Positions 37,444 through 64,000 of a DNA stretch of 64,000 bases are shown one piece after another; positions within the stretch are counted from its first letter, which is position 1; the number at the start of each line of letters is the position of its first letter. The DNA is from an uncultured virus (IMG/VR IMGVR_UViG_3300029305_006210) (Duplodnaviria > Heunggongvirae > Uroviricota > Caudoviricetes). A program made the translations under genes and the position numbers. The notes under the pieces were generated by a model. That model ran no database searches, was not told the DNA's origin, and saw only the letters and a list, made by a program, of their open reading frames with translations. Location: positions 1-64,000 of IMG/VR virus record IMGVR_UViG_3300029305_006210. The stretch is one strand, 5' to 3'.

Positions 37444-38502
37444 TTAACCAAGTAAATCTTCTAATGCTGAATCAATATCACTTACTGAAGAACTTTCTAC
37501 AGCTGCTTCAATATCCTTCATTGTTTCTTTTGCAACCGGCTGACTTGCTAATTCGTTTTCAACATCGGCTAATGAATAACCAGAATCAATTGGTCCATTT
37601 GCAAAATCTCCAAATAACTCATGTCTAATCAGTCTAATTTCATAAATATTTTCGCCAAATGCCTGTCTATTAAAATCATCAATAGTAGCCTGTCCATATG
37701 CAATCTGCTCTTTCTGAGCGTCAGTCAGCATACTTTCATCAAATTCTACAGTTTCAGCTCCACGAATAATCTTGCATCCCCAAGGAATATGAATCATTTC
37801 ACTATTTTTTACATTAACCTTAGATGCCATCATTTTCGCAAAGGCAATATTCTTTTCTTCGCCAGTTGCAATAGCTTTACTTACATCAAGAACAACTTTC
37901 TGAGGAAAGAATTTTTCTCCAAGATCTCTATTGATATACTGCTTCGTATATGCATTAAGAATGATTCTATGTGTTTTATCAAAATCTGTTGCATCAACAC
38001 AATCCTTGTTATAGAAAAGATCCATCTTAACTTCTAATGAATTTTTTACAGCAGTGCTTGCTCTTACAGTATCAACTTCATAATGATCATAATATTGTCC
38101 CTTATAAGGAGTCTTAGTAAATCTTCCGCTACATTCTACCTTACCTTCATATTCCGGAAGAACCTTAGCAAGATACTTTACGAAATCATACTGCGCTAAA
38201 AATTCTTTTTCTTCACCATCTAAATCAACTATGTACTTTCTGTATCTTGGCGCTTCTGCAACAACATCTTCATCAAATCTATTAGCCCAAGGAATTTCAT
38301 CTGAACCAATCTTGATTGTGTCATAAACACTGCCAAAACATTCTACAAAGCAAGAATTAAACTTACTTTCTTTTACGCCAAAGTTGATACTGGCCATATC
38401 AATGTTTTTATTCTTTCCTCCTTTCATTTCCTTAAAAAATCTTTCTGCATTTTTAGGGATAATTAAATCCCCTGTGAATGTAAATCTACTTGTGTACGCC
38501 AA
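37444..38502 (-). CDS. putative ssDNA-binding protein
   Basis: Position next to the Sak4-like gene, beta-rich, acidic tail; AAGGAG before TTG at 38502. Confidence 0.5.
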   Translation of the reverse strand: MAYTSRFTFTGDLIIPKNAERFFKEMKGGKNKNIDMASINFGVKESKFNSCFVECFGSVYDTIKIGSDEIPWANRFDEDVVAEAPRYRKYIVDLDGEEKEFLAQYDFVKYLAKVLPEYEGKVECSGRFTKTPYKGQYYDHYEVDTVRASTAVKNSLEVKMDLFYNKDCVDATDFDKTHRIILNAYTKQYINRDLGEKFFPQKVVLDVSKAIATGEEKNIAFAKMMASKVNVKNSEMIHIPWGCKIIRGAETVEFDESMLTDAQKEQIAYGQATIDDFNRQAFGENIYEIRLIRHELFGDFANGPIDSGYSLADVENELASQPVAKETMKDIEAAVESSSVSDIDSALEDLLG

Positions 38503-38757
38503 TAAATTTCTCCTTTCATAATTAAATTTAAACAATAAAATATCTATATGAACACTAAAAATGTGATCACAAAATTATCAACTTTATTAAACTCATTAAT
38601 ATAAAATGAAAATATAACGAAATGTTATTTAGAATTAGCGATTGCCCATACAGCACATCGCTCTTTTTTAGACATATACCAAGCACATTCTGAAGTACAG
38701 TACTTGTCAAGTATTGGACATAGACGTTTAACGTCATTTATTTGAGGTTTTACTGCT

Positions 38758-41979: not shown

Positions 41980-42387
41980 TTATGAAACGGCTATTTTTTC
42001 GTGTATATCAGTTAAGCATTCTATACTTATAAACTGAATCATCGGTGAATTAATTATAGATGCTATTGAAATCTTTTCCATATATGCATGAGGCATAATT
42101 CCAATAAATCCTAAAATATCTGATTTAGATACTGGTCTAGCGCCTTCGCATTGAGCGATACTATCTTTTGATAAACCCGCTACGTTTGCAGGAATTTCTA
42201 CATGTGTAGGTAATTTAGCCTTTTTCTTTCTACTAGTTAATGGAACCACCTGAATTGTAGGGCTAAATCTATTCCCTTTATTATTTTGAATAATAACAGC
42301 CGGTCTTACACCATTTTGAATATGATCGCCATCACTGTACAAACGAACCCATATTACATCTCCAATCTTCAAATAATCTTTTTTCAT
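41980..42387 (-). CDS. PemK/MazF-family endoribonuclease
   Basis: GDVIWV, Q.GVRPAVIIQN..GNRFSPT..VVPLTS, LPTHV, GL.KDS motifs. Confidence 0.9.
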   Translation of the reverse strand: MKKDYLKIGDVIWVRLYSDGDHIQNGVRPAVIIQNNKGNRFSPTIQVVPLTSRKKKAKLPTHVEIPANVAGLSKDSIAQCEGARPVSKSDILGFIGIMPHAYMEKISIASIINSPMIQFISIECLTDIHEKIAVS

Positions 42388-45850: not shown

Positions 45851-46171
45851 TCATGCTTCACCGCCTTTCACGATCTCGATAGCATCATTTATCTGAACAA
45901 AGCTACTTACTCTTTTTACACCAGAGTTCATCATGACCTCTCCTGATTTTGCCGCATCCACCAACCGCTTCTCGATCTCGTTCATCGGCTTTCGTGTGTT
46001 CCATGCTTCGATGGCTTTTAATTTTGCATCTTCCATAGTTGCTGAACTAAATTCAAGCGTTCTTACACCGCACGTTTTACATCTTACATAGGCTTCGTGT
46101 TTAAAGAATGCAATTTTATGTAGTGCCGCTTCCCCACCGCAGAACGGACACGGCTTTAACCTATTACTCAT
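45851..46171 (-). CDS. Lar-family restriction alleviation-like protein
   Basis: LKPCPFCGG, C..CG and AIEAWN.R motifs. Confidence 0.7.
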   Translation of the reverse strand: MSNRLKPCPFCGGEAALHKIAFFKHEAYVRCKTCGVRTLEFSSATMEDAKLKAIEAWNTRKPMNEIEKRLVDAAKSGEVMMNSGVKRVSSFVQINDAIEIVKGGEA

Positions 46172-47883: not shown

Positions 47884-48126
47884 CTACCCCTCCAAGAAAT
47901 CTAAAAGAACACTTTCATCAATTTGTACATCGTCAATCAAGGCATATGTAATTATTCGATAGCTGTTAGTCGGATGGCTATTTTTAAGGATCACCATCCT
48001 TTCTCTTGCCTTGTCAATGCTTTTATAAGCACCATTCTTTGCAGAGAAAATTATATTTCCAGTATCTTCATTTAATATTGCATATAACTCTTTACAATTA
48101 TTTATATTTCGCAATACATGTCCCAT
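47884..48126 (-). CDS. small protein with C-terminal tag (outlier of the array)
   Basis: Ends QIDESVLLDFLEG. Confidence 0.6.
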   Translation of the reverse strand: MGHVLRNINNCKELYAILNEDTGNIIFSAKNGAYKSIDKARERMVILKNSHPTNSYRIITYALIDDVQIDESVLLDFLEG

Positions 48127-49135: not shown

Positions 49136-49636
49136 TTATCTAGGTATTGATTCACACACAATAGGTTCACATACCATTGCGCATAATTCACAGGCAGCTT
49201 TTACCGCCTCTCTTGCTGATGCTCCCATATGTAATGCTCCACTTGCATAATCTTCTCCTGCACCAATTGCATAATAATCTTCAATTGGGAAAACTAACAT
49301 ACCCTCTATTGCAAAAGCTTTACCTTTATATGCGATTATATATGGATTCTTAAAACTGTTGTCACCGGTTAAATCATTCTTCCATCTTCTAAATTCAAGA
49401 ATATAATCTAACACGTTTTTTTCATCCATTTCTTCTATTGTATGTGTCTTCATATAATGAAAGAGTAAACTACTTTCTTCTGCGACTCCGCAACCTCCGA
49501 TAATCATATCGTTGTGTTTCATCATTTTAACAACTTTATTTTGTGCGTTATTAAGTTTAGTCCAACCCTGAACAACAATAGAATCAGAAGCCATTTCAAT
49601 TGTATTTTTATTTATTTTACAAACTACTACACTCAT
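49136..49636 (-). CDS. HslV / proteasome-beta-like Ntn hydrolase
   Basis: N-terminal (M)SVVV, ASDS, K, and AIGAG..YA.GAL..GAS..EAV.AA motifs. Confidence 0.7.
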   Translation of the reverse strand: MSVVVCKINKNTIEMASDSIVVQGWTKLNNAQNKVVKMMKHNDMIIGGCGVAEESSLLFHYMKTHTIEEMDEKNVLDYILEFRRWKNDLTGDNSFKNPYIIAYKGKAFAIEGMLVFPIEDYYAIGAGEDYASGALHMGASAREAVKAACELCAMVCEPIVCESIPR

Positions 49637-50132: not shown

Positions 50133-51263
50133 TTACTTTCTATACCTAAATTTTGGCATTGGCAATAATTTAAATAGATTCTTCTTATGTAATTCATCTA
50201 TTCTTTCTTTTACTTCAGGATCATCACAAATACCTTCCCTAATGTATTTATCTAATACTTTATATGTAAAACCTAAATTGTCTTCATCAGTTTTCCCACT
50301 AAGACCATCTGCAGGTGTCTTTTCAATAAATTCTTTAGGAAGTCCAAGAGAATATCCTAATGTCTTAACCTCTTGTACGGTCAAATTTGATAATGGGCTA
50401 AAGTCGCCGGCCATATCGCCGTATCTTGTGGAATATCCAACCCAGTCTTCAGACAGGTTGCATGTATTGGCAACTCTGCCATTCATACTTTGAGAAACTC
50501 CATAAAGAACAGCCATCCTAAGTCTTGGCGGCAAATTAATAATCGTTTGTTCGCTAAGACGATCACAACAATCATCAATTTGAGTAATAGCATTATCAAA
50601 CATTCGACTAATATCTATCGTACAATAATTAATTCCTAAGTGATTACATAAATTGTAGGAAACATCGATGTCGCTTTGTTTACCGTTAGGCATCAGTACG
50701 CCAAAAACTCTTTCCTTGCCAAGAGCTTCAACACAGAGAGCCGCAACTACCGAACTGTCTTTGCCTCCAGAAATACCTACTATTGCATTGCATCCTTTAC
50801 CGTTTTCTTCAAACCAGTCTCTGATCCACTGAACACAATCGTTTTTAATTGGTTCAATTTCTTTAATATGTTCTTCGGCTTCAATCTCATCAATTAATTC
50901 GCATAGCATATCATATACAAGTGGTAAACCACCTCTATCATCAATATAGACATTAGCATAAGTCTTTCTACCTTTAACAGGTACTGAACTATCGCAATTA
51001 ATTCCTTCATATTTAATGTTATGTTCATTAAGATAAGCCTGAATTTTAGGATATTCGCTTTCTCCATTACCTGTTAATATAATTACTTCAGATCTACTTT
51101 CCCATCTATGAAGAAGTTCAATGATATTATTAAATGTCTTTCCTGTGCCATGGAAATCATATAACGTATCATCAAAATCCACACAAAATATTAATTTACC
51201 ATGCTGAAGATATTCATCTTTTAATCTTTTATAGCAATTTTTTACTTCTAAATACCAATCCAT
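50133..51263 (-). CDS. nadE: HAD domain fused to NH3-dependent NAD synthetase
   Basis: N-terminal VDFDDTL...YIDD; C-terminal GISGGKDS, RLRM, GYSTRYGD, P.DGL...DED.LG. Confidence 0.9.
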   Translation of the reverse strand: MDWYLEVKNCYKRLKDEYLQHGKLIFCVDFDDTLYDFHGTGKTFNNIIELLHRWESRSEVIILTGNGESEYPKIQAYLNEHNIKYEGINCDSSVPVKGRKTYANVYIDDRGGLPLVYDMLCELIDEIEAEEHIKEIEPIKNDCVQWIRDWFEENGKGCNAIVGISGGKDSSVVAALCVEALGKERVFGVLMPNGKQSDIDVSYNLCNHLGINYCTIDISRMFDNAITQIDDCCDRLSEQTIINLPPRLRMAVLYGVSQSMNGRVANTCNLSEDWVGYSTRYGDMAGDFSPLSNLTVQEVKTLGYSLGLPKEFIEKTPADGLSGKTDEDNLGFTYKVLDKYIREGICDDPEVKERIDELHKKNLFKLLPMPKFRYRK

Positions 51264-52729
51264 TAGAATTCTCCTCTGTGTAAAATATCTCTAATTTCAG
51301 CTAATGTATAATTTTTTAATAATACTCCATCTTTAAATACTGGTTGCAGTAAATTTCCTTCTGGAATAGTAGAGCTAGTATATTCGTCTTTATACTTTAA
51401 CCCTCCGCTTTCTTTATACACATAGCATAATCCCTTCTGAGACTTCTTAAATCCGCCTTCTTTTGGATTTTTGAAAATAGGATATTCTTTACCATCTACT
51501 TCTGCATAACATGCTTTAATACAAGAACTAAATGTATCTCTAGTAAACGGCTTTAATTCCCCATCTTCTTCAATACAATGCATTGAGAAAGAACCTACTC
51601 CAAGTGCCACATTACTTGCAGCAAATCCATTTTGCATCAGAATTTCATATATTCGCTCTGCTCTTTGAACTGTAATTGAATCACCGTAAATAGCTTTTAC
51701 ATGTGGATCCAGTACTTTATAGCCTTTGCTATTTAAAGTGCCACCAAACTGTTCCCACAGCTTAAATACTGTCTGAGTTACTACTTCTACACAGTCACCA
51801 GAATCACCTCTCATAAGCATACATCCATTATGAGCCATGATTTCATCATGAATCTTAGGCAAAATATTATCAATTACGTTCCAGTAATCATAGCTATCAA
51901 GTACACATGAGAAACTTGTGTTAGGATATAATTCAGTCAATAACTTTCTCAGGAAAGTTTCTTCATCTCCATCTATTGCATAATTGCTACACATTACAAA
52001 ATGCTCACTACTTACAGCTCCAAATGCAACCTCTTCTTTTTCACAATCACAATTATACATTTTTTCAAGATACGGAATTACTGGCACTGTTGCAGTGTTT
52101 ACAAATGATAGACACCATCCGGATCCTGCTTTGAGTGCAGCATCAAGACCCATATCACCTCTAAAGTCGAAGCTACCCAAAGCTTTTCTTCTTGGAGTAT
52201 CTTCATCGCACGTCATATCATAATATTTATTTACAACATCACGATACGTCTTACCTACTGTTGCAGTGATCATTGGATACCAAAGCTCTGCACTAATTAA
52301 AGATTCAAGTGCTTGCGGCAACCAAGCAAAATCATCATGAGTATTTGTAATACCAAACATAGGTACCTTCATTGGAACCATTGTTCCTTCTGGAAGCGCT
52401 GTAATTTCAATTGGCAAATACCCAAGATGATGCAGTTTTATAATTTTTTCGATATCATATACACCTTCACCAAGCGTATTATCAAGAACTCTTTTATATT
52501 CAGCGATTACTTCATCTTCTGGCCTTTCAAAAAAATTATCTCTAAAGTGATCAATAAGATAAGTTTTGCAAAATGCTTGTAATCCAAACATTACAACTTT
52601 ATCCCATCTATTCACTCTACTCATTCGCGGCGTAAAGTAGGATACAGATTTTGTCATACCCGGATTAAGCATTTCTGCATGAACTGCTTTGTAAAAATCA
52701 CATAATAATAATGAATTCATTTCGTGCAT
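51263..52729 (-). CDS. NAMPT-family phosphoribosyltransferase (Namat/NadV-like)
   Basis: DFYK..H, F.FRG, SEH, DSYD, RGDSGD, IYGDSI, GVGS, TRDT, KKS.KG motifs. Confidence 0.9.
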   Translation of the reverse strand: MHEMNSLLLCDFYKAVHAEMLNPGMTKSVSYFTPRMSRVNRWDKVVMFGLQAFCKTYLIDHFRDNFFERPEDEVIAEYKRVLDNTLGEGVYDIEKIIKLHHLGYLPIEITALPEGTMVPMKVPMFGITNTHDDFAWLPQALESLISAELWYPMITATVGKTYRDVVNKYYDMTCDEDTPRRKALGSFDFRGDMGLDAALKAGSGWCLSFVNTATVPVIPYLEKMYNCDCEKEEVAFGAVSSEHFVMCSNYAIDGDEETFLRKLLTELYPNTSFSCVLDSYDYWNVIDNILPKIHDEIMAHNGCMLMRGDSGDCVEVVTQTVFKLWEQFGGTLNSKGYKVLDPHVKAIYGDSITVQRAERIYEILMQNGFAASNVALGVGSFSMHCIEEDGELKPFTRDTFSSCIKACYAEVDGKEYPIFKNPKEGGFKKSQKGLCYVYKESGGLKYKDEYTSSTIPEGNLLQPVFKDGVLLKNYTLAEIRDILHRGEF

Positions 52730-53526
52730 TACAATACCTCCTCTATACGCATTGTATTAATCTTTTCATGTGATGAATGAAAAAGACTATCTGTGGTCCA
52801 AACACTTTTTATAAGATCTCCTTTTAATAGCTCACCTTGATGAATTGTATCTTCGCAATGAGTTACATATAGATGAACATCTTTTGCCCCAAGCTCTTTA
52901 AGCTTTTTTGCTGCAAAATAAAAAGTTCCTCCACGGGAACAAATATCATCTATTATAAGAATGTTTTTATTTTTTATTAACTCAGCATCTCCGGCAATAT
53001 TCAGCCCAAGAATTTTTCCTGTATCCCATTGCCTTTCCTTTACCCCAAAAGCATATGGTAATTTTGCCATACCACTATAACGTTTCATTGCACCTTCATC
53101 TGGAAAAAATAATGAATCTACATAAACTTGATCTAATACTTTGTTTATAAATAGCTCTGGAGTTTTCACACATATATTATCAATTAACGCCTCGCTTACA
53201 GAAGAATGTGGATCTAATACTGATACATAATCAAAATTGAGGCTATTAATAATATTTGCAAAAAATTTTAAAGTGAAAACTTCATCATCATGTTTTACTC
53301 TATCCATGCGAGCGTTTGGAATGTACGGCATTTTCAATTGGATATTTGAACAACGAAGTTTATCTAAATGTTTCTTTACGTAGATAAGCGTTATTAATTC
53401 TTCTTCACGTTCATATAACCATGTTATAGTAGCATCAGTTCTGAAAATCGTTGTTGGCATTTTTATATTTTGTGTACCATCGGGAAAACGATCTACGATT
53501 ACTTGTGCTCCATCTACTTTTATCAT
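52729..53526 (-). CDS. PRPP-synthetase-like protein (Adps-like)
   Basis: FPDG, PYIPNARMDR, DPHS, PDEGA.KR, IIDDICSRGGTF and VTH motifs. Confidence 0.9.
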   Translation of the reverse strand: MIKVDGAQVIVDRFPDGTQNIKMPTTIFRTDATITWLYEREEELITLIYVKKHLDKLRCSNIQLKMPYIPNARMDRVKHDDEVFTLKFFANIINSLNFDYVSVLDPHSSVSEALIDNICVKTPELFINKVLDQVYVDSLFFPDEGAMKRYSGMAKLPYAFGVKERQWDTGKILGLNIAGDAELIKNKNILIIDDICSRGGTFYFAAKKLKELGAKDVHLYVTHCEDTIHQGELLKGDLIKSVWTTDSLFHSSHEKINTMRIEEVL

Positions 53527-53530
53527 ATTT

Positions 53531-54136
53531 TTACCTCTTAATTTCTATCTGACACATTTCCATAGCCTTAAGTGCATTTTCATGACTATCCGGAGTAACG
53601 CCAGCGCAACATGTCGCATCAACGCTAATTTTTGCTTCCGGCATAAATGCTTTTAATAACATTGCATTAGATATAACGCAAATATCGGTACAAAGGCCAA
53701 CAAGTTCAATCTCTACTCCACTACCATCTTTATTATCAATTACTGCCTGTATCACCTTTGCAAGATCTACTGAGCCAAATGTAGGCTTATTAATTGTATT
53801 GTTTTCGCCAATATAAGGTACAATTTCTGGATCAATAATTATAGTTTTTTTATACATCCAAGTACTTCTAATTGCTTTCTGTATATACCATCCTTCATTT
53901 ACTTTTCCTGGCTCATAGATACAATGTGGCACCGGAAGATTTTTACCTTCCTGAATTTCCATATAATTAGGCCCATGTGTATCTTTTGTAAAAAGAATTA
54001 ATGTTTCTTCGTTTGCTGCTTCAATTTTCTTGATTACATTAGGCACAATTGCTTTAGCCTCTTCTGTTCCGAGAGCGCCGTCGATAAAATCATTCTGCAT
54101 ATCTACTACGATTAAAAATTTATTTAAATTATCCAT
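53531..54136 (-). CDS. pncA: nicotinamidase (isochorismatase family)
   Basis: VDMQNDF, DTH, HC, K.TF and GLCTDICV motifs. Confidence 0.85.
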   Translation of the reverse strand: MDNLNKFLIVVDMQNDFIDGALGTEEAKAIVPNVIKKIEAANEETLILFTKDTHGPNYMEIQEGKNLPVPHCIYEPGKVNEGWYIQKAIRSTWMYKKTIIIDPEIVPYIGENNTINKPTFGSVDLAKVIQAVIDNKDGSGVEIELVGLCTDICVISNAMLLKAFMPEAKISVDATCCAGVTPDSHENALKAMEMCQIEIKR

Positions 54137-57200: not shown

Positions 57201-57494
57201 TTATACATCAAGAAATTCTAATAAATCGTCTTGACTAATATTTACCTCACCGTCCGTCCAATCAATTGTATCGTAGCCAAATATAAATCCAGGTTCTTTG
57301 CCAATATTATCAGCAGGCACTCCTACAAAACCCATACTATTAGGGCCACCTATTGCTCTAATATAGACATAAGAACCTCTGAGATTATAACATTTATCAT
57401 CCACTATGTACGTCGAATACATTTCACCAAGTTGTATGTCATCTCTAATACGAATTATATTTCCTTCCTTAAAATCAGGATGTTTAAATTTCAT
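57201..57494 (-). CDS. tagged small protein, SH3/KOW-like family
   Basis: FKEGNIIRIRDD; ends NISQDDLLEFLDV. Confidence 0.7.
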   Translation of the reverse strand: MKFKHPDFKEGNIIRIRDDIQLGEMYSTYIVDDKCYNLRGSYVYIRAIGGPNSMGFVGVPADNIGKEPGFIFGYDTIDWTDGEVNISQDDLLEFLDV

Positions 57495-57498
57495 ATTA

Positions 57499-57801
57499 TC
57501 ACACTCCTAAAAAATTGAATAAATCACATATATCTATGGCAAGATCAGGGCTTAAAATGTTATATTCTGATAAATCAAACATCTCTGTGGTCCAAAACCA
57601 ACCTCCTGCTTCTTTAACATAAAATTTCCCATTTAGACCTATCGCTGTTATAGTTACACGTTTTCCAGCAAACTTTACCATTTGAGGAGTCGCAAAATCA
57701 GCGGCAGTGTTATAATTTTCATATGTTTTTCCTTGCAAATCTGATCTTACTAACACTTTATCGCCCACTTCAGGCACAAGTAGACCTTTAATATATTTCA
57801 T
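57499..57801 (-). CDS. tagged small protein, SH3/KOW-like family
   Basis: VGDKVLVRSDL; ends AIDICDLFNFLGV. Confidence 0.7.
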   Translation of the reverse strand: MKYIKGLLVPEVGDKVLVRSDLQGKTYENYNTAADFATPQMVKFAGKRVTITAIGLNGKFYVKEAGGWFWTTEMFDLSEYNILSPDLAIDICDLFNFLGV

Positions 57802-57827
57802 TTTTTAATTACCTCTTTTTTTTATAT

Positions 57828-58020
57828 TCTCTAATCTAAATATTATTTGGATACCGAGAAGGCTGCTTAACGCGTGACGTCATCCGGAAGATTCCGGTGA
57901 GAAAGTTGTGTTATTTCGCATATGCGGATGGGCTCAGTGACCTGGAGACCTGCGTGCTCCTTCCTGGTTATTTATGAACAATTCGAAAACTCTGATTACA
58001 CCAAGAGCTGTTTTTTAAAA
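57828..58020. other. GC-rich palindrome-dense non-coding element 1
   Basis: No ORF in the track; shares TCTAATCTAAAT, GAAGGC, GACGT(C)ATCCGGA, GAGACC and CTCCTT in order with element 2. Confidence 0.55.
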
Positions 58021-58044
58021 AAACAATGCATTAGAAAATATTAA

Positions 58045-58446
58045 TTATATATTTAAAAAATTCATTAAACTGTTTTGATATATTACCATTTTAGGCACTT
58101 TTTCAAATTCAATATCTGTAAATAGATAGTCTGTAATCTCAGTCCCATTGTCTAAACTACTACTTCCATCGCAGTGAATATGCAGTATTCCATCACAATC
58201 TTCTGCACAATAAATAGAAACCCACTCATTAAATTCAAACTCAAATACTTCTCTTTCTTTAACCCTTTTTAAATCGTCTAAGAGCGTGGAATTTGAATAT
58301 ACTGTTATATCTAAAAAACTTTCTAAATATAACATTGTTTGCAGAAACTCTTCTCTTGTCTCACATATTATTCCAATGGCTTCTGGGTTTGTCCAATGTA
58401 ATAAAAATCTATTAATATCAAATTTAATTTTTTCTCCGACTGCCAT
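58045..58446 (-). CDS. tagged small protein
   Basis: IICETREE....M.YL; ends IYQNSLMNFLNI. Confidence 0.7.
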   Translation of the reverse strand: MAVGEKIKFDINRFLLHWTNPEAIGIICETREEFLQTMLYLESFLDITVYSNSTLLDDLKRVKEREVFEFEFNEWVSIYCAEDCDGILHIHCDGSSSLDNGTEITDYLFTDIEFEKVPKMVIYQNSLMNFLNI

Positions 58447-58473
58447 AACTAAAATCTCCTTATTGTTTAAATT

Positions 58474-58806
58474 TTATTGATCTAAGAAAGAAAATAAATC
58501 TTGAGAAGAGATATTTATTTCCATTACAGGTTCTAACATTTGATCATTAAACACCCACGTTTTTATACCTTTTAATCTATAAAATTTCTCATGGCCTTCT
58601 AATTGCATTACTTCAGTTTCCATGCCACGGAAACATTCCATTTCTTCGGCAAAATGAAGAGGTGAATCACCTTGGTATAAATAAAGATGATCATCAAAAT
58701 CGTAATCATCTTTTCCATTTGGAAATTTTGAATTATAATATAATCCACCTATCAAATCTTGTCTTATTCTAACTGTGTCACACACTTTAAAATTCTTACA
58801 ACTCAT
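58474..58806 (-). CDS. tagged small protein, SH3/KOW-like family
   Basis: FKVCDTVRIRQDL; ends NISSQDLFSFLDQ. Confidence 0.7.
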   Translation of the reverse strand: MSCKNFKVCDTVRIRQDLIGGLYYNSKFPNGKDDYDFDDHLYLYQGDSPLHFAEEMECFRGMETEVMQLEGHEKFYRLKGIKTWVFNDQMLEPVMEINISSQDLFSFLDQ

Positions 58807-58808
58807 AA

Positions 58809-59069
58809 TTACCCCTTTAAAAAATTTTGCAAATCTTCAAGTTTTATTTCTTGAGGCCAATAAATTTGTTCACCAAATGCTATTTCATAAGCTTTTAAAA
58901 TTTCTTCTTTTGTCATATCAAAAGTATCATCATCATAAGATTTTAGAGTTTCAAACGAAGTACCACGTCCGCATCTATGATCATTCCACTCTCTATCTAT
59001 CGGACACTGTGAACAAAAAATTGGCGAACAAAATTCATTTAATTTTTTACGATATTTAATTAGTTCCAT
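58809..59069 (-). CDS. tagged small Cys-rich protein
   Basis: KYRK.L..FC....C..C...RCGRGT; ends IKLEDLQNFLKG. Confidence 0.7.
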   Translation of the reverse strand: MELIKYRKKLNEFCSPIFCSQCPIDREWNDHRCGRGTSFETLKSYDDDTFDMTKEEILKAYEIAFGEQIYWPQEIKLEDLQNFLKG

Positions 59070-59070
59070 A

Positions 59071-59322
59071 TTAGTTTCCTAAAAATTCATTTAAGCTTTC
59101 TAAAGATATATTATCAATAATTATTGTTATATCTTTATTAAATACAGTTTTATATATCCTGATGATTTCTTCATCTGACATATCATATTGATCATTATTT
59201 TTTTTAAAAGTAAAATGCGTACCACGCCCACATCTATATTTAGCACCTTCTAAAATACAATTATCACACGTTCTTTTACTATCGCAGAAGCGCGAGAGTT
59301 CTTTCCTATATTTTGTTAACAT
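59071..59322 (-). CDS. tagged small Cys-rich protein, paralog of 58809-59069
   Basis: KYRKELSRFC...C..C...RCGRGT; ends NISLESLNEFLGN. Confidence 0.7.
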   Translation of the reverse strand: MLTKYRKELSRFCDSKRTCDNCILEGAKYRCGRGTHFTFKKNNDQYDMSDEEIIRIYKTVFNKDITIIIDNISLESLNEFLGN

Positions 59323-59330
59323 ATCTCCCC

Positions 59331-59651
59331 CTACATTAAAAAATCCATCAATTTTGATTTTGATGGAAAGATAGCAGAACTACATTCTGGAGTTAAGTTT
59401 AAAATATGTTTAATTTGATAGCCTTTTTGAATACATTCGTATCTAAGTCTTGTTTTCCTTTTCAGCAAATTATTATGACAAACTGATCCTAAGTAACATA
59501 TTTCAGGTTCTATAATAATTACACCACGATTTTTTTGTTGCTTACTAAATGAGATTTCAACATTGTAATTTTTTACAATCCATTCGCAGGCTATTTTAAA
59601 TTGTTCATATGTATCAAATAAAATTATTAATTTATTATGCTTTTTCTTCAT
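59331..59651 (-). CDS. tagged small protein
   Basis: Ends FPSKSKLMDFLM. Confidence 0.7.
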   Translation of the reverse strand: MKKKHNKLIILFDTYEQFKIACEWIVKNYNVEISFSKQQKNRGVIIIEPEICYLGSVCHNNLLKRKTRLRYECIQKGYQIKHILNLTPECSSAIFPSKSKLMDFLM

Positions 59652-60034
59652 ATTTCTAAAAAATCTTTTAAAGATATCTCAGATGGGAAAACGCCGTATA
59701 CTAATTCGCTACAAGTAATCGTTTTATGAGTTATAAATTTTCGTCCTTCATTAAATAAAGGATATGTAATATAATCATCTGGTGAATAATTTTGTGTTGC
59801 TCGTACATATTCTTTACATCTAATAAACATAGAACTACCTGCCTCGAAAAATAAAGCATACTCATCGTCTTCGGTCATTGCATATTCCATATGATCAGTC
59901 CAATCTGTATAACCTGAGGTATTTTCATTACCTGTACACCATTTTACTTCCGGATGATGGATTTCTAACCATTGTAATGCATCAAAAACTTCGCTTTTAT
60001 TATTACAAACAATAGCAGCATAATTAAAAGCCAT
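59648..60034 (-). CDS. tagged small protein, C...E...L..L...W..G family
   Basis: IVCNNKSEV..ALQWL...VKWCTG; ends FPSEISLKDFLEI. Confidence 0.7.
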   Translation of the reverse strand: MAFNYAAIVCNNKSEVFDALQWLEIHHPEVKWCTGNENTSGYTDWTDHMEYAMTEDDEYALFFEAGSSMFIRCKEYVRATQNYSPDDYITYPLFNEGRKFITHKTITCSELVYGVFPSEISLKDFLEI

Positions 60035-60038
60035 AACT

Positions 60039-60401
60039 TTACTCCTTTAAAAAATATAGTAAATCATCTTTTGAAATTGTATTTATAGGTAAAATATCCT
60101 TAGCATTAAAAATATGAGTTTTTCTCAGATTATTTACATGACATATATCACTAAAATATGATTGGCCGTGACATTTTTTTGATCTAAAAAATACAAAAGA
60201 CTTTTTTAATAAATTGCTCTGTTTTATACATAACACTATTTCATCGTCATGTGGTATTTCACAATTAAGTATGATTTCATGAAAAGTTGAAACTAATAGT
60301 TCATTTGATTTCCAACGTAACTTCGGGTAAACCCTTTCTAGATGACTAAGACATTGAAGAGCTTCATTAATTCCAAAGCATTTATATATTTCTTTTATCA
60401 T
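60039..60401 (-). CDS. tagged small protein, W..G family
   Basis: LERVYPKLRW; ends TISKDDLLYFLKE. Confidence 0.7.
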   Translation of the reverse strand: MIKEIYKCFGINEALQCLSHLERVYPKLRWKSNELLVSTFHEIILNCEIPHDDEIVLCIKQSNLLKKSFVFFRSKKCHGQSYFSDICHVNNLRKTHIFNAKDILPINTISKDDLLYFLKE

Positions 60402-60413
60402 AATAATGCCTTT

Positions 60414-60716
60414 CTATATTAAAAAATCCATCAAATCGGAATTTGACGGAAATTTCATTGTGGAGTTTATTATTTTTTGTATTGTAATTTCTGATTTAGG
60501 TGCTATTTTAGATGTTACTAAGTTAAATCGATCACACCAACACAGCTCATTATTATATACCATTAAATACATTGGAAATTTTAATACTTTTGGTCGATGT
60601 TTTGTAGGTTTTCCTAATCCTAATACCCAATGCAACTCTGGATATTTATATTCAAGATAGTTTAATGCCATATTAACTTCAGAATAACTATCACATTTTA
60701 TAAAATAATTTTTCAT
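60414..60716 (-). CDS. tagged small protein, W..G family
   Basis: LEYKYPELHWVLG; ends FPSNSDLMDFLI. Confidence 0.7.
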   Translation of the reverse strand: MKNYFIKCDSYSEVNMALNYLEYKYPELHWVLGLGKPTKHRPKVLKFPMYLMVYNNELCWCDRFNLVTSKIAPKSEITIQKIINSTMKFPSNSDLMDFLI

Positions 60717-61106
60717 TTAATCCTCCAAAAATTCAAGCAAATCCAACTTTGATGGATATTCTATAGGTTGATACTTATAAAATGGATAACGCGTTTCCTT
60801 ATAATCAATAGAAGATTTTGTATAAAAATTTATATAATATCGCGGAAATTTATATGTGAATTTAATAAATTTTCTTATTTGAAAAACATTTCTCCTATCA
60901 TTCCATTCCCAATCCTCACTGGTTAACCAATCGCTAGGTATTCCTTTACGTATTGATAATGCCTTCGCCCCTTTAATTCTCGGCATCCATTTGATTCTTG
61001 TTTGATGCTCTATATCTTTTAAAAGACTTGCAAATTCATTATAATTTTTAACCTCAATGACAAAGGGTGCTGGAAATTCCAGTTTAATTATTTTTTTAAT
61101 ATTCAT
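60717..61106 (-). CDS. tagged small protein, W..G family
   Basis: IEHQTRIKW; ends YPSKLDLLEFLED. Confidence 0.7.
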   Translation of the reverse strand: MNIKKIIKLEFPAPFVIEVKNYNEFASLLKDIEHQTRIKWMPRIKGAKALSIRKGIPSDWLTSEDWEWNDRRNVFQIRKFIKFTYKFPRYYINFYTKSSIDYKETRYPFYKYQPIEYPSKLDLLEFLED

Positions 61107-61438
61107 TATATATCACCTATAAATTTCAATAATTCTTCTTGCGAAGGAAATATACAATTTTCATCTTTACATTGATAAAATACAACATCTGACCATGGAA
61201 TTTCATCATAATATTTGGAACATCCCATACTACCAAAGCTAATACTAATGTATCCAGGGATAAATGCAGGAGTGTATCCAGTTGGTCTTTCTCCGGCATG
61301 CCATCTTATTTCAGTTTCTCTTTCTATAAAAGAAAGCACCTTATTTGCCTCTTGTAATGTTTGATAAAGGACTCGAATATCTTCGCGCTCATTTTTTATA
61401 TATGCGACTAAATCATCAAAACTAATTGTTTCTATCAT
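61106..61438 (-). CDS. tagged small protein, W..G family
   Basis: IERETEIRWHAG; ends FPSQEELLKFIGDI. Confidence 0.7.
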   Translation of the reverse strand: MIETISFDDLVAYIKNEREDIRVLYQTLQEANKVLSFIERETEIRWHAGERPTGYTPAFIPGYISISFGSMGCSKYYDEIPWSDVVFYQCKDENCIFPSQEELLKFIGDI

Positions 61439-61454
61439 TTTATGCTCCTTAATT

Positions 61455-61772
61455 TTAATTTAAAATATCCATCAACATAGACTCTGATGGATATTTATAT
61501 AAAAGGTCTGATGCATTAATAACTTTGAAATCCAAGTATCGTGTAGGAATATTGCCATTTATAAATAAATTATATTTTTCACTACTTTCATCTTTGGTAA
61601 GACTATTTCCTCTAAGATATAATATACCTTGTCCTTTAAATATAGCGCTAGGTTTATAATCTAATGAATCGCCAGTACACCATTTTATAAGTGGATAGTT
61701 ATTAGCCAGCCACTTTAAACATGGCTCACATTCTCCATTATCACACATAATAATAGTTTTATTTTCTATCAT
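61455..61772 (-). CDS. tagged small protein, W..G family
   Basis: LANNYPLIKWCTG; ends YPSESMLMDILN. Confidence 0.7.
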   Translation of the reverse strand: MIENKTIIMCDNGECEPCLKWLANNYPLIKWCTGDSLDYKPSAIFKGQGILYLRGNSLTKDESSEKYNLFINGNIPTRYLDFKVINASDLLYKYPSESMLMDILN

Positions 61773-61774
61773 AA

Positions 61775-62083
61775 TTAAGCCTCCAAAAATTTTGTTAACG
61801 ACGCTTCATCTGGTAGTGGTAATATAACTTCATTAAATACAGATTCAATTTCATCAAAACCTATATATACATCTATTATCATTGATAAATCACTCCTTTT
61901 TCGCACCCAACTTAATTGATTATTGTTAATGATAAATATTGCATCCCCTTGTATAACTAACGCTTCTGTTGGACGTCGTCCAGATGTCTTCCATCTAACC
62001 ATTGGTAAATTAGCTTCAATAACTTCTAAACACGCTCTTGATTGATTACTATTTTTGCAGCAAATTGCAATATTTTTATTCAT
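61775..62083 (-). CDS. tagged small protein, W..G family
   Basis: IEANLPMVRWKTSG; ends LPDEASLTKFLEA. Confidence 0.7.
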   Translation of the reverse strand: MNKNIAICCKNSNQSRACLEVIEANLPMVRWKTSGRRPTEALVIQGDAIFIINNNQLSWVRKRSDLSMIIDVYIGFDEIESVFNEVILPLPDEASLTKFLEA

Positions 62084-62088
62084 ATTTT

Positions 62089-62427
62089 TTACCTATTCAA
62101 AAATTCCACCAAACTACTTTCTGATGGCAAAATATTATAAGAAATATTATATTGTCTTTCTAAATCGCCAAATTCAATAATCTTGCAATCAGAATACATA
62201 TCAGCACAATAAACTTTATCATCAAATAATTTTCCATAAGTTAGGCGAAAATCTTTTATATAAAAGGCTACTCCTTTTTTAAAAATTTTAGATAAATAAC
62301 TTGAAACAGGATTTATCGGACTATTCCCTGATCGCCATCTTACAGTAGTTTCATTTTCAAGAAACTGTAGAAAAACATCTGATTCTTCTTGATTTCTACA
62401 TACGACTATCATATTGTTTATTATCAT
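62089..62427 (-). CDS. tagged small protein, W..G family
   Basis: LENETTVRWRSG; ends LPSESSLVEFLNR. Confidence 0.7.
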   Translation of the reverse strand: MIINNMIVVCRNQEESDVFLQFLENETTVRWRSGNSPINPVSSYLSKIFKKGVAFYIKDFRLTYGKLFDDKVYCADMYSDCKIIEFGDLERQYNISYNILPSESSLVEFLNR

Positions 62428-62459
62428 AAAATTTACCTATTTTACACCATATAACTATA

Positions 62460-62777
62460 TTAACTTTCTAAAAATTCCAATAGACTATTTTGTGAAATGA
62501 ATTTAAAATTCATTATTTTACAAAATTCATCGAAACTCAAATTAGTTTCAGGGTTAAGAAATTTTGCTACTTCATCTAAATAATCCCATGATAATCTATC
62601 ATCTTCTATAAAAAAGACAACCTGATGTGTTATGGGAAATGCTATTTTAAGAGTTGGTATCTTATGCCCTGTTTGCCATTTTACATCTGTAAATTCGTAA
62701 AGCAATTGTAAAAAAGTTTCAACTTCCACCTTTTCCATACATGTTACTGTTATATTATTTAATTTCATAACTTTCAC
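62460..62777 (-). CDS. tagged small protein, W..G family
   Basis: LYEFTDVKWQTG; ends FISQNSLLEFLES. Confidence 0.7.
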   Translation of the reverse strand: MKVMKLNNITVTCMEKVEVETFLQLLYEFTDVKWQTGHKIPTLKIAFPITHQVVFFIEDDRLSWDYLDEVAKFLNPETNLSFDEFCKIMNFKFISQNSLLEFLES

Positions 62778-63035
62778 CTATTTTAAGAAGTCCATCAAAT
62801 TTTCCTTTGATGGAAAAGTAGTATTTCCGAGGTCTAACATCTCAAAAGTATAATACCATGAATAAGTGTTTGTCTTTAGATATACCGACCTCTTTAAAAT
62901 TTCAAGCACTTCAAAACCTTGAAATTTCAACGGTTTCATTCCTTCCCAATAAGGCAAACCGTTATATTCTTGACCAATTACCAAATCTTGTCTCAAATAG
63001 ACGATATCTCCCACTTTTATGCCTGGATTTACCAT
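62778..63035 (-). CDS. tagged small protein, SH3/KOW-like family
   Basis: IKVGDIVYLRQDL; ends FPSKENLMDFLK. Confidence 0.7.
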   Translation of the reverse strand: MVNPGIKVGDIVYLRQDLVIGQEYNGLPYWEGMKPLKFQGFEVLEILKRSVYLKTNTYSWYYTFEMLDLGNTTFPSKENLMDFLK

Positions 63036-63036
63036 T

Positions 63037-63318
63037 TTAGTCCTCCAAGAATTCCATCAAAGACGCATTTGATGGAAAAGTATAATTATATGCAAATACA
63101 TCTTGATATTCAAAAGCTATTCTACGTTCGCTTATAGCTGTTACATACACACCATCATCATATACATAGTATGTATTTACATACTCCTCATATAATTCTG
63201 TTGGAGCTTGTATAAATAATCCTTGTTCTTTTACTAGACGTAAAAATGTTCTAACATCTTCAACTGTTCTAATATACACAGAAGATTTTCCGTCTACCCA
63301 AGATTCCCAATCAAACAT
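63037..63318 (-). CDS. tagged small protein
   Basis: Ends FPSNASLMEFLED. Confidence 0.7.
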   Translation of the reverse strand: MFDWESWVDGKSSVYIRTVEDVRTFLRLVKEQGLFIQAPTELYEEYVNTYYVYDDGVYVTAISERRIAFEYQDVFAYNYTFPSNASLMEFLED

Positions 63319-63320
63319 AA

Positions 63321-63623
63321 TTATTCTCCTAAAAATTGCTTCAAGCTGGACTCAGAAATTTTTGTAATAATAAGCAGATCTGCTGCTTTAATAGACTCCC
63401 AACCATACTGTACATGGAAGTCATCGGGGCCCATTAGTATACGTTTTCTATCCTCCCAGTTATATACAACAGCATATGGCTGTTTATTTATAACATCTTC
63501 CCAAAAGCTTGATTTTTGACCTATTCCTCTTTTTGCGCAACAATCTGCAAAATCTAATATTTCTTGTTCATTATCAAAATTTACACTTAATTTTTCATTT
63601 ATAAATCTGTCAATATCGTACAT
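63321..63623 (-). CDS. tagged small protein
   Basis: Ends KISESSLKQFLGE. Confidence 0.7.
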   Translation of the reverse strand: MYDIDRFINEKLSVNFDNEQEILDFADCCAKRGIGQKSSFWEDVINKQPYAVVYNWEDRKRILMGPDDFHVQYGWESIKAADLLIITKISESSLKQFLGE

Positions 63624-63643
63624 GATTTTTGAACTCCTATTTT

Positions 63644-63846
63644 TTCTAATCTAAATTATCATGAAGGCGACGTATCCGGATGGCATATATTACATTTTTG
63701 CAAGCGAAGTATTGATTACGTCTTGCGAGTTTAGCTATTTGTGGTTGTATAAGGTGTTGGAATTCCAACCTGATACTCATTTGCCCGAAAGTATCATCAC
63801 GAGCTGCGAGACCAGATCTTGATGATCCTCCATGTCACTCCTTGAC
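63644..63846. other. GC-rich palindrome-dense non-coding element 2
   Basis: Related to element 1; contains GTTGGAATTCCAAC, ATCCGGAT, TGATACT...AGTATCA and AGATCT. Confidence 0.55.
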
Positions 63847-63858
63847 AATATGAAAATT

Positions 63859-63999
63859 TTATTCTTTTAAAAAATCCATCAGATTTTGCTCTGACGGATA
63901 TTTCTCTTTTATTATTAAATCAGAAAATGGAATTATATCCCATCCATGTTTTAATAAAAAATTATTTTTCGCACATGTATCTATATAGTTATGTCCTGA
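63859..63999 (-). CDS. tagged small protein (partial, runs off the window)
   Basis: Own translation ...GWDIIPFSDLIIKEKYPSEQNLMDFLKE*. Confidence 0.7.
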   Translation of the reverse strand, partial: SGHNYIDTCAKNNFLLKHGWDIIPFSDLIIKEKYPSEQNLMDFLKE

Positions 64000-64000
64000 C

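What the first reader, a model, noticed from the sequence alone, without database searches (positions are those of the whole stretch)
57201..64000. Array of 20 consecutive small genes from unrelated families, all ending in one shared C-terminal tag
Seen: every minus-strand ORF from 57201 to the window edge (19 complete, 1 partial), plus outliers at 55532 and 47884, ends in [FYI]-[PI]-S-x-x-x-L-x-x-F-L followed by 1-3 residues. Examples: FPSKSKLMDFLM, YPSKLDLLEFLED, ISQDDLLEFLDV, YPSEQNLMDFLKE. The N-terminal bodies fall into at least three unrelated families (SH3/KOW-like, C...E...L..L...W..G, Cys-rich RCGRGT), so whole-gene paralogy does not explain the tag. Inference: a modular system of variable target-binding domains with a common amphipathic docking helix for one hub, such as a protease, sliding clamp or capsid-loading machinery. 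It could be an anti-defence or host-takeover adaptor library. I do not recognise it as a described system.
Basis: partly seen in the sequence, partly recalled or inferred. Interest (0 to 1): 0.92.

Follow-up and report, generated by a model that had tools for sequence, protein, structure and literature searches.

The report
Shared C-terminal tag on phage genes
A large uncultured phage carries a run of about two dozen small genes from several unrelated protein families that all end in the same short tail, which most likely sends them all to one still unknown partner.

Summary
Twenty-four minus-strand genes end in [FYx]-[PI]-S-x-x-[DS]-L-x-x-F-L plus 1-5 residues. Twenty lie at 57201-64000, two more follow beyond the window edge, and two are outliers at 47884 and 55532.

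The motif occurs only at C-termini. It shows synonymous-codon variation, so it is selected as protein. It sits on at least four body types: an alpha/beta family, a related "MYDIDRF" family, an SH3-like all-beta family and a Cys-rich pair. Profile comparison of two of these families aligns only the 13 tag columns.

Twenty-one tagged relatives exist in other metagenomic phages, apparently also in arrays.

The residues after FL often encode the next gene's Shine-Dalgarno. In 8 of 24 genes the tag DNA is also a perfect inverted repeat plus U-run, which looks like a terminator.

The partner is not identified. Leads are the T4 capsid-targeting sequence (the closest analogue), the sigma-A C-terminal helix, the HslU tail and a degron.

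I rate it a new variant of a known kind, with the mechanism unproven.

The parts
47884..48126 (-). outlier tagged gene, 80 aa, singleton body, tail QIDESVLLDFL-EG
   Evidence: 23.3 bits
55532..55915 (-). outlier tagged gene, 127 aa, SH3-like body (family B), tail KISQDDLMNFL-T
   Evidence: (phrog_37608/17705)
57201..57494 (-). tagged gene, 97 aa, family B, tail NISQDDLLEFL-DV
57499..57801 (-). tagged gene, 100 aa, family B (phrog_7488 E 2.6e-11 over residues 11-76 only), weak tail AIDICDLFNFL-GV
58045..58446 (-). tagged gene, 133 aa, family A (alpha/beta), I-type tail VIYQNSLMNFL-NI
58474..58806 (-). tagged gene, 110 aa, family B, tail NISSQDLFSFL-DQ
58809..59069 (-). tagged gene, 86 aa, Cys-rich family C (RCGRGT), weak tail EIKLEDLQNFL-KG
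59071..59322 (-). tagged gene, 83 aa, family C, tail NISLESLNEFL-GN
59331..59651 (-). tagged gene, 106 aa, family A, tail FPSKSKLMDFL-M
59648..60034 (-). tagged gene, 128 aa, family A, tail FPSEISLKDFL-EI
60039..60401 (-). tagged gene, 120 aa, family A, tail TISKDDLLYFL-KE
60414..60716 (-). tagged gene, 100 aa, family A, tail FPSNSDLMDFL-I
60717..61106 (-). tagged gene, 129 aa, family A, tail YPSKLDLLEFL-ED
61106..61438 (-). tagged gene, 110 aa, family A, tail FPSQEELLKFI-GDI
61455..61772 (-). tagged gene, 105 aa, family A, tail YPSESMLMDIL-N
61775..62083 (-). tagged gene, 102 aa, family A, tail LPDEASLTKFL-EA
62089..62427 (-). tagged gene, 112 aa, family A. This is the protein modelled: pLDDT 86, alpha/beta fold, tag = helix 103-110. 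Tail LPSESSLVEFL-NR
62460..62777 (-). tagged gene, 105 aa, family A, tail FISQNSLLEFL-ES
62778..63035 (-). tagged gene, 85 aa, family B body but P-type tail FPSKENLMDFL-K like its neighbours
63037..63318 (-). tagged gene, 93 aa, D-like body, tail FPSNASLMEFL-ED
63321..63623 (-). tagged gene, 100 aa, family D (MYDIDRF...), tail KISESSLKQFL-GE
63859..64000 (-). 3' part of tagged gene (complete at 63859-64149 of the contig, 96 aa, family D), tail YPSEQNLMDFL-KE. Two more tagged genes follow outside the window (contig 64393-64680 and 64673-65002)
59345..59366 (-). inverted repeat CCATCA-N10-TGATGG inside the tag codons, followed by a U-run. Hairpin of -9.4 kcal/mol
60428..60449 (-). same inverted repeat (CCGTCA-N10-TGATGG) plus U-run, -11.3 kcal/mol
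61469..61490 (-). same inverted repeat, stem extended to 13 pairs, -13.7 kcal/mol
62106..62127 (-). same inverted repeat with a G-U wobble (TGGTGG), -8.5 kcal/mol
62792..62813 (-). same inverted repeat, -11.2 kcal/mol
63054..63075 (-). same inverted repeat, -11.3 kcal/mol
63876..63897 (-). same inverted repeat, -14.4 kcal/mol, followed by U-run, stop codon and a 235-nt intergenic gap

Best explanation
The tail is a modular short linear motif selected at the protein level. It consists of a Pro/Ile-Ser hinge followed by an eight-residue amphipathic, mildly acidic helix (x-x-[DS]-L-[ML]-[DEN]-F-L) placed 1-5 residues from the C-terminus. It has been attached to at least four unrelated small-protein bodies. 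These genes sit in the long leftward (early / anti-defence) arm of a large clostridial-type siphophage.

Inferred: the tail is a common address label that brings all these proteins to one receptor site. The variable bodies would do different jobs there. The receptor is not identified.

My ranking of what the label does is inference only:
1. Targeting into the prohead, so that a varied anti-defence set is packaged and injected. T4 does this for its internal proteins with its capsid targeting sequence.
2. Delivery to, or recognition by, a protease, as a shared degron or timer.
3. Docking on a host hub that normally binds a similar helix, namely the sigma-A far C-terminus on the RNA polymerase beta-flap.

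Shown: the motif, its exclusively C-terminal position, selection at the amino-acid level, its presence on unrelated folds, and its recurrence in other phages. Not shown: any binding, any partner, any phenotype.
For: Position and excess. 24 genes carry the tag, with 0 internal copies, against 0.025 expected.

Protein-level selection. The invariant Leu(-3) uses five codons (TTA 10, TTG 10, CTA 2, CTT 1, CTG 1). Ser(-7) uses both TCN and AGY. Leu(+1) uses TTA, TTG and CTT.

Unrelated bodies.
- BLASTP without the tag gives separate clusters.
- hhalign of family A against family B aligns only 13 tag columns.
- AlphaFold gives an alpha/beta fold for A (pLDDT 86). For B it gives strands only, followed by the terminal helix (low confidence, pLDDT 50).
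- The B bodies hit phrog_7488/17705 only over the N-terminal ~65 profile positions.
- Two remote relatives of the family A N-domain lack the tag (P0052, P0057).

Modularity. Tag subtype (P-S or I-S) follows position in the array rather than body family. The only A member in the B/C zone (58045) has the I-type. The only B member in the A/D zone (62778) has the P-type.

Conservation elsewhere. A profile search over 1.84 billion representatives gave 60 hits. Of the 38 I fetched, 21 are non-self proteins of about 100 aa that keep L, F and L in 21 of 21 and P in 16 of 21. Equal contig lengths suggest they share contigs: at least 4 on a 118,542-bp contig, 3 on a 4,286-bp contig, and pairs on contigs of 955 to 19,910 bp.

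Context. The array lies among anti-restriction and NAD-salvage genes: ArdA-like, Lar-like, NAMPT, PRPP synthetase, nicotinamidase and NadE.

Precedent. [quoted passage not shown]
Against: - No partner was found by any test here.
- The tag helix of family A is modelled at pLDDT about 83. It may therefore be part of the domain rather than a free tail.
- Eight of 24 tags are also a conserved nucleic-acid hairpin plus U-run, and the residues after FL overlap the next gene's ribosome-binding site. Part of the conservation is therefore not about the protein.
- Families A and D may be distantly related. D members match the A profile over its last ~45 positions. The number of truly independent bodies is thus three or four, not more.
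- The capsid idea has no direct support. The genes sit in the early-looking arm, and their charges are mixed (pI 4.2-9.5).
- Co-location of the relatives is inferred from equal contig lengths only. I could not read those contigs.
Confidence: 0.5

Rival explanations
1. The conservation is mainly at the nucleic-acid level. The gene ends carry a hairpin plus U-run (a leaky terminator or attenuator, an RNA-stability element, or a palindromic protein-binding site) and the next gene's ribosome-binding site. The peptide is a by-product.
For: - Eight tags encode a perfect inverted repeat CCRTYA-N10-TGRTGG, which is found nowhere else in the contig (shuffles give 0.72).
- MFE is -7.8 to -14.4 kcal/mol, stronger than synonymous recodings. 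In 6 of the 8, at most 1.3% of recodings fold as well.
- In the 9-pair consensus stem only 3 of 72 cells are broken. Changes are wobble-compatible, and one is a double change.
- Leu(-3) ends in G in 8 of 8 hairpin tags against 3 of 16 others. Genome usage of G-ending Leu codons is 17%.
- Two of the hairpins precede 235- and 243-nt gaps.
- Shine-Dalgarno-like words lie in the post-FL codons in 10 of 24 genes. 19 of 24 genes are followed by the next start within 16 nt.
Against: - Sixteen of 24 tags have no structure beyond synonymous controls (z -0.95 to +1.26), yet they keep L..FL.
- Synonymous variation at the invariant residues is wide.
- The two outliers and the 21 relatives in other phages keep the peptide.
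- Eight terminators in a row inside one operon would be self-defeating.
- The shared codons could be descent or gene conversion rather than selection.
Confidence: 0.12
2. All tagged genes are one fast-evolving paralogous family. The C-terminal helix is simply its best-conserved structural element, packed in its own fold, and there is no shared partner.
For: - This is a tandem array with clear paralogy inside the groups.
- D members match the C-terminal ~45 positions of the A profile.
- The tag helix is modelled at pLDDT about 83 in family A.
Against: - Family B is SH3-like, all-beta, with its own PHROG relatives.
- Family C is a Cys-rich pair.
- hhalign of A against B aligns only the tag.
- Relatives of the A N-domain exist without the tag.
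Confidence: 0.1
3. The tail mimics the HslU C-terminal tail and docks the proteins on the phage's own HslV-like peptidase (window 49136-49636), activating it or feeding it targets.
For: - The phage encodes an HslV-family Ntn peptidase (phrog_1040 E 2.3e-24). Weak PDB matches are to BPH and HslV. M1-S2-V3 is invariant across 20 aligned relatives.
- No HslU was seen.
- The E. coli HslU octapeptide EDLSRFIL alone activates HslV, and its Phe is strictly conserved (PMC4106860, passages read). The tag core D-L-x-x-F-L is similar.
Against: - The HslV-like gene is 81-87% identical in four other IMG/VR phages, none of which (0 of 4) holds family A (positive control). The complete one (162 kb) has no tag at all, with a best score of 8.5. 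The peptidase therefore works without tags.
- In HslU the Phe is third from the end. Here it is third from the end in only 5 of 24 tags.
Confidence: 0.06
4. The tail mimics the far C-terminal helix (H5) of the host primary sigma factor. It docks on whatever binds that helix: the RNA polymerase beta-flap tip, or a MotA-like phage factor.
For: - Sigma-A of four Clostridia genomes ends in HPSRSKKLKDYL[DE] or a close variant. The tag reads [FY]PSxx[DS]Lx[DE]FL + 1-3 residues.
- I scanned one complete Clostridia genome for L-x-[DE]-[FY]-L-x-stop. Loci were available for the first 30 of the 61 DNA matches. Among those 30, only sigma-A lies at the end of a long gene. One other match ends a doubtful 154-codon frame.
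- H5 is 'a hydrophobic/acidic helix', normally embedded in the beta-flap hook, and is the site bound by T4 MotA (PMC2988021, passages read).
- No sigma domain was found in 123 kb of this phage, so it probably uses host sigma-A.
Against: - The Pro-Ser is one residue closer to the helix than in sigma-A.
- The sigma loop is basic (RSKK), whereas the tag is neutral or acidic.
- Tags always have F where these sigma-A proteins have Y.
- Twenty-four proteins competing for one site on polymerase makes little sense.
- The host is unknown.
- I recalled this resemblance and then checked it, so there is a look-elsewhere effect.
Confidence: 0.1
5. The tail is a shared degron. It marks all these early proteins for removal by one host or phage protease, giving them a common short lifetime.
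For: - A label that every member needs individually explains why so many unrelated proteins carry it (inference).
- The phage encodes two self-compartmentalising peptidases: ClpP-like (PF00574 E 9e-24) and HslV-like.
- The tail is exposed, terminal and hydrophobic.
Against: - There is no resemblance to the degrons I know (recalled, not tested).
- The terminal residues are not conserved.
- No experiment bears on this.
Confidence: 0.15

Closest known systems
Capsid targeting sequence (CTS) of the T-even phage internal proteins (IPI, IPII, IPIII and their variable relatives)
   Same: A varied set of small, otherwise unrelated phage proteins shares only a short terminal peptide. The known members counter host defence. 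The peptide is an address label, not part of the working domain (PMC3012670).
   Different: The CTS is N-terminal and, as I recall, is cut off by the prohead protease. The tag here is C-terminal, and no cleavage site is evident. I made no sequence comparison with the CTS. Virion content is unknown. This host and phage type are unrelated to T4.
Far C-terminal helix H5 of sigma-70 / sigma-A, bound by the beta-flap tip and by T4 MotA
   Same: It is a short hydrophobic/acidic helix at the very C-terminus, preceded by Pro-Ser, with the L-x-[D]-[FY]-L-[DE] pattern.
   Different: The spacing differs by one residue, and sigma has a basic loop where the tag is neutral or acidic. The tagged proteins have no sigma domain (no Pfam hit).
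HslU C-terminal tail that activates HslV
   Same: It has a D-L-x-x-F-[IL] core at a C-terminus, the peptide alone is active, and an HslV-like gene is present in this phage.
   Different: The register to the C-terminus differs in 19 of 24 tags. The HslV-like gene occurs in phages without tags.
Cargo-loading peptides of encapsulins, and C-terminal coat-binding helices of phage scaffolding proteins
   Same: In these cases a short C-terminal peptide on unrelated cargo docks on the inner face of an HK97-type shell.
   Different: There is no sequence likeness that I know of. The capsid protein of this phage could not even be confirmed by sequence.
Intrinsic (Rho-independent) terminators
   Same: Eight tags form a 9-13 bp hairpin followed by a U-run.
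   Different: The hairpins lie inside coding sequence, have weak stems (3-4 G-C pairs), are absent from 16 of 24 tags, and most are followed at once by the next gene.

Membership tests
T4-type CTS-bearing internal proteins | Diverse proteins share only a short terminal targeting peptide | tested here: met
T4-type CTS-bearing internal proteins | The peptide is N-terminal and removed by the prohead protease (recalled) | tested here: not met
   The tag is C-terminal in all 24 genes. Cleavage cannot be tested with these tools.
T4-type CTS-bearing internal proteins | The proteins are present inside virions and injected | not testable with these tools
   Needs virion proteomics.
HslU-type HslV-activating tail | Conserved Phe third from the free C-terminus in D-L-x-x-F-I-L | tested here: not met
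   F is third from the end in 5 of 24 tags. Otherwise it is fourth or further from the end. Motif taken from PMC4106860.
HslU-type HslV-activating tail | Co-occurrence with its HslV partner | tested here: inconclusive
   An HslV-like gene is present, but it is also present at 81-87% identity in 4 phages without family A. The one complete phage among them has no tags.
Sigma-70 family region 4 / H5 | Sigma70_r4 domain upstream of the tail | tested here: not met
   None of the 22 in-window tagged proteins hit any sigma family in Pfam-A. PF04545 and PF04542 give no match in either contig.
Sigma-70 family region 4 / H5 | Tail sequence HPSRSxxLxD[FY]L[DE] | tested here: inconclusive
   The pattern is similar, but with a one-residue indel and a different charge.
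Intrinsic terminator | G+C-containing hairpin followed by a U-run | tested here: inconclusive
   Met in 8 of 24 tags and absent in 16.
Diversity-generating retroelement targets (considered because a reverse transcriptase lies upstream) | Template repeat near the RT that matches a variable repeat at the 3' end of the target genes | tested here: not met
   blastn of the four intergenic gaps, including the one next to the RT, against the whole phage gave no copy of gene-end DNA. The inverted repeat occurs only in the tags. The RT scores best as retron type (RT_II-A, E 5.9e-48).
Integron gene cassettes (considered: promoterless unrelated genes, each with a 3' inverted repeat) | IntI-type integrase and attI at the head of the array, and attC sites after each cassette | tested here: not met
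   The gene at the head of the array is an RT, not an integrase. The repeat lies inside the coding sequence and in only 8 of 24 genes. attC boxes were not searched for.

The most novel reading that the evidence does not exclude
The array is a phage-borne arsenal of two dozen different effector domains that all use one portable C-terminal address helix. Either they are loaded into the capsid and injected ahead of the DNA as a ready-made anti-defence kit (a C-terminal, Firmicute-phage counterpart of the T4 CTS system), or they all plug into one host hub by copying the C-terminal helix of the housekeeping sigma factor. In either case the 11-residue tag would be a transferable handle for finding the hub and for tagging foreign cargo.
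Probability: 0.2. Interest if true: 0.85.

Novelty: new variant of a known kind. Interest (0 to 1): 0.66.

Why it matters
Short terminal address peptides shared by unrelated phage proteins are rare and useful. The T4 capsid targeting sequence led to the discovery of injected anti-restriction proteins, and it became a tool for packaging foreign proteins.

Here a different, C-terminal label marks 24 proteins of unknown function. They sit next to anti-restriction and NAD-salvage genes in an uncultured clostridial-type phage, and the label recurs in other uncultured phages. Finding its receptor would assign a common pathway to a whole block of phage 'dark matter' at once. It would also give a simple sequence rule for finding further members.

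The overlap of a peptide motif, an RNA hairpin and a ribosome-binding site in the same 45 bases is also a compact example of multi-layer coding.

Tried and rejected
- Complex prediction. I folded the HslV-like peptidase (3 copies, alignment A5) with tagged protein 62089-62427 (alignment A3). The verdict was 'no answer', score 0.01 against a mark of 0.32, and the controls were not run. This is neither for nor against binding.
- DNA similarity of the array to 50,697 GenBank phage records gave no match.
- Word-index protein searches with 63859-64149 and 57499-57801 found only themselves.
With P0031 and P0017 it found nothing in IMG/VR.
- Back-translated tag pattern (FPSxxxLMDFL):
  - IMG/VR gave only the near-identical sister contig plus 5 single chance hits.
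None had two C-terminal tags. The best single hit, L123, is not in a real ORF.
  - GTDB genomes gave 84 loci, with 0 hits at the end of an open frame longer than 50 codons.
- Clostridioides phage pCD1602_4, the closest cultured relative by polymerase (52% identity), has no tags. Neither does the 46.8 kb of the sister contig upstream of the window.
- Fold of family A. Foldseek against PDB gave no match with E <= 0.001. VIA-align gave a best Z of 3.7. BFVD gave only uncharacterised phage proteins and one DUF551 protein (E 5e-4 to 2e-3). The ESM Atlas gave only hypothetical viral clusters.
- Rfam found nothing in the array or its gaps apart from tRNAs further on.
- PADLOC found no hit for four tagged proteins.
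- The promoter scan found no excess over shuffles.
- An unbiased scan of a proxy host proteome was only partly done. One register of the motif was searched, and only the first 30 of 61 hits had loci.
- Literature. Two full-text searches for such arrays found nothing relevant. That covers only those word combinations in open-access papers.

Full report
**What the sequence is.** The window is the first 64 kb of a 76,872-bp viral contig (CheckV completeness 44%). A near-identical IMG/VR contig of 110,740 bp differs at 2 of 17,441 aligned bases and extends it by 46.8 kb on the other side. Together they give about 123.7 kb of one phage. That sequence holds:
- terminase, portal and virion proteins, and a long tail module;
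- two tyrosine integrases;
- a DnaE-type polymerase 52% identical to that of Clostridioides phage pCD1602_4;
- DnaB, primase, exonuclease, ribonucleotide reductase, and a MazF-like gene;
- a block of NAD-salvage genes: NAMPT, PRPP synthetase, nicotinamidase and NadE.

G+C is about 31%. From about 76 kb down to 18 kb, nearly all genes are on the minus strand.

Every minus-strand gene from 57201 to the window edge ends in the motif. The contig shows two more such genes beyond the edge, so with the outliers at 47884 and 55532 there are 24.
- The strict pattern fits 21 of 120 called genes. It never occurs internally in 24,090 residues, and 0.025 matches are expected from shuffles.
- A weight matrix scanned over all six frames finds the 24 sites at 17.7-32.1 bits, all 1-5 residues before a stop. 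Nothing else scores above 13.7.
- Leave-one-out scoring keeps 22 of 24 at 13.9 bits or more. The tails of 57499 and 58809 are weak.
- The invariant core is L(-3), F(0), L(+1). Position -8 is P or I (12 each), -7 is S in 18, -4 is D or S in 17, -2 is M or L in 16, and -1 is D, E or N in 19.

**It is selected as protein.** The invariant leucines and the serine use many synonymous codons, including the TCN/AGY switch. Twenty-one non-identical relatives from other metagenomic sources keep L, F and L in 21 of 21.

**The bodies are not one family.**
- BLASTP without the tail gives separate groups.
- With profiles, 11 genes form an alpha/beta family A. Five are a related 'MYDIDRF'/D-like group that matches only the last ~45 positions of the A profile. 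Five are an SH3-like family B with PHROG relatives that share only the N-terminal ~65 positions. Two are a Cys-rich pair, and one is a singleton.
- hhalign of A against B aligns 13 columns, which are the tag.
- AlphaFold models A confidently as beta-alpha-alpha-beta-beta-alpha-beta-alpha plus the tag helix 103-110 (pLDDT 86). For B it gives only strands plus the terminal helix, at low confidence (pLDDT 50).
- The A fold has no convincing solved relative. In BFVD it has only uncharacterised phage look-alikes.

**The tag behaves as a movable module.** The I-S subtype fills the low-coordinate end: all 8 tagged genes up to 59071. The P-S subtype dominates above that point (12 of 16). The one A-family gene among the B/C genes has the I-type. 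The one B-family gene among the A/D genes has the P-type. Subtype thus follows neighbours, not ancestry of the body. This suggests exchange or conversion at the gene ends (inference).

**Two nucleic-acid layers lie under the peptide.**
- First, 19 of 24 genes are followed by the next start within 16 nt. In 10 of 24 a Shine-Dalgarno-like word lies in the codons after FL (GAGG.., GGAG.., AAGGAG). This explains the E/G/K-rich last residues.
- Second, the eight tags of the form P-[SL]...L-[MV]-[DE] (Ser at -7 in seven, Leu in one) encode the perfect inverted repeat CCRTYA-N10-TGRTGG followed by a U-run. The repeat occurs nowhere else in the contig. The hairpins of -7.8 to -14.4 kcal/mol are stronger than synonymous recodings. 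Variation in the stem is pairing-compatible. The Leu codon ends in G in 8 of 8 hairpin tags, against 3 of 16 in the rest and 17% in the genome. Two of these hairpins precede 235- and 243-nt gaps, where they may be true terminators.
- The other 16 tags show no such structure. The hairpin is therefore an added layer, or a shared-descent trait of one tag subtype. It is not the cause of the motif.

**Distribution.** Nothing like the array is in GenBank phages, in pCD1602_4, in IMG/VR other than the sister contig, or in 185,579 GTDB species genomes for the commonest tag form. The exhaustive profile search did find tagged A and D members in Logan/ENA assemblies.

**What the tag might bind.** I found three resemblances and checked what I could.
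- HslU's HslV-activating tail EDLSRFIL, together with an HslV-like peptidase in the window. However, that peptidase is 81-87% identical in four other phages without family A, and the complete one among them has no tags.
- The far C-terminus of clostridial sigma-A, HPSRSKKLKDYL[DE]. This is the helix that the beta-flap hook and T4 MotA bind. The match is good from L to the end, but the Pro-Ser is offset by one residue and the charge differs. No sigma domain is in the phage.
- The T4 capsid targeting sequence, which is the only described case of many unrelated anti-defence proteins sharing just a terminal address peptide. This is a likeness in logic, not in sequence.

None of these amounts to evidence of binding. 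I therefore commit to the general mechanism of a common docking or address helix, at a confidence of about 0.5. I rank prohead targeting and protease recognition above the single-site hubs, because a label carried by 24 proteins fits a many-site or catalytic receptor better (inference).

**Verdict.** This is a real, statistically overwhelming, protein-level C-terminal tag on unrelated small phage proteins. It is overlaid by ribosome-binding-site and hairpin signals. It recurs in other uncultured phages. Its partner is unknown. It is a new variant of the terminal address-peptide theme.

Noticed in passing
contig 65483-70014 (L001 2483-7014), minus strand, just upstream of the array: A four-gene block: an unknown 464-aa protein (its nearest Atlas cluster with a family is Prok-E2_D, score 0.79, a lead only), a JAB-like 370-aa protein, a ThiF/E1-like 232-aa protein, and a retron-type reverse transcriptase of 435 aa. 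The RT has a ~110-residue N-terminal extension that contains a tag-like core, EIDLLDFLNDL. The tag core occurs outside C-termini only twice in the contig (here and inside the RNR large subunit), against 0.24 expected.
   Followed up: partly
contig 65262-65482 (L001 2262-2482), minus strand, just downstream of the RT: A strongly structured 221-nt non-coding stretch with two long hairpins. MFE is -70.6 kcal/mol, z = -8.1 against mononucleotide shuffles. It could be a retron-type non-coding RNA, but it lies on the unusual side of the RT. No Rfam match.
   Followed up: partly
window 57993-58003; contig 64337-64347 and 65427-65437; weaker copy near contig 70281-70327: A small conserved stem-loop in the intergenic gaps of the array. 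The stem varies with compensating changes (CTCT/AGAG, CCTT/AAGG, TTCT/AGAA) around a constant loop WGGTGTWATC. It may be a promoter-proximal regulatory or antitermination hairpin.
   Followed up: partly
sister contig G001: L007 5340-5795, L007 5852-7198, L008 1269-2282 (and L007 13198-14448): A second C-terminal motif, [ST][DE]E[DE]-I-x-x-L-F plus 1-2 residues. It ends three proteins of the virion-gene half, one of them an integrase-like protein, against 0.015 expected. A tail-fibre protein ends in the similar SITALFS.
   Followed up: partly
window 32107-33183 and 37444-38535, minus strand: The PD-(D/E)XK exonuclease ends in RSLEDFL, and an unannotated 363-aa replication-module protein ends in SALEDLLG. 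These are acidic/hydrophobic tails loosely like the tag (scores 3.8 and -1.2 bits).
   Followed up: no
window 50133-54136, minus strand: A full NAD-salvage set: NadE with an extra N-terminal domain, NAMPT, PRPP synthetase and an isochorismatase-type nicotinamidase. From memory, such sets let phages rebuild NAD+ against NAD-depleting defence systems.
   Followed up: no
window 49136-49636 (minus strand) and G001 L008 2307-4350: There are two phage-borne self-compartmentalising peptidases. The first is an HslV-like gene with invariant M-S-V N-terminus that is 81-87% identical in otherwise distant phages (polymerase only 27% identical in one), which suggests a mobile cassette. The second is a ClpP-like gene next to a beta-CASP/RNase J-like gene.
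   Followed up: partly
window 41980-42387, 45851-46171; contig 71495-72250: A MazF/PemK-like toxin gene, a Lar-like restriction-alleviation gene and a weak ArdA-like gene lie in the same arm. This is consistent with an anti-defence region.
   Followed up: no
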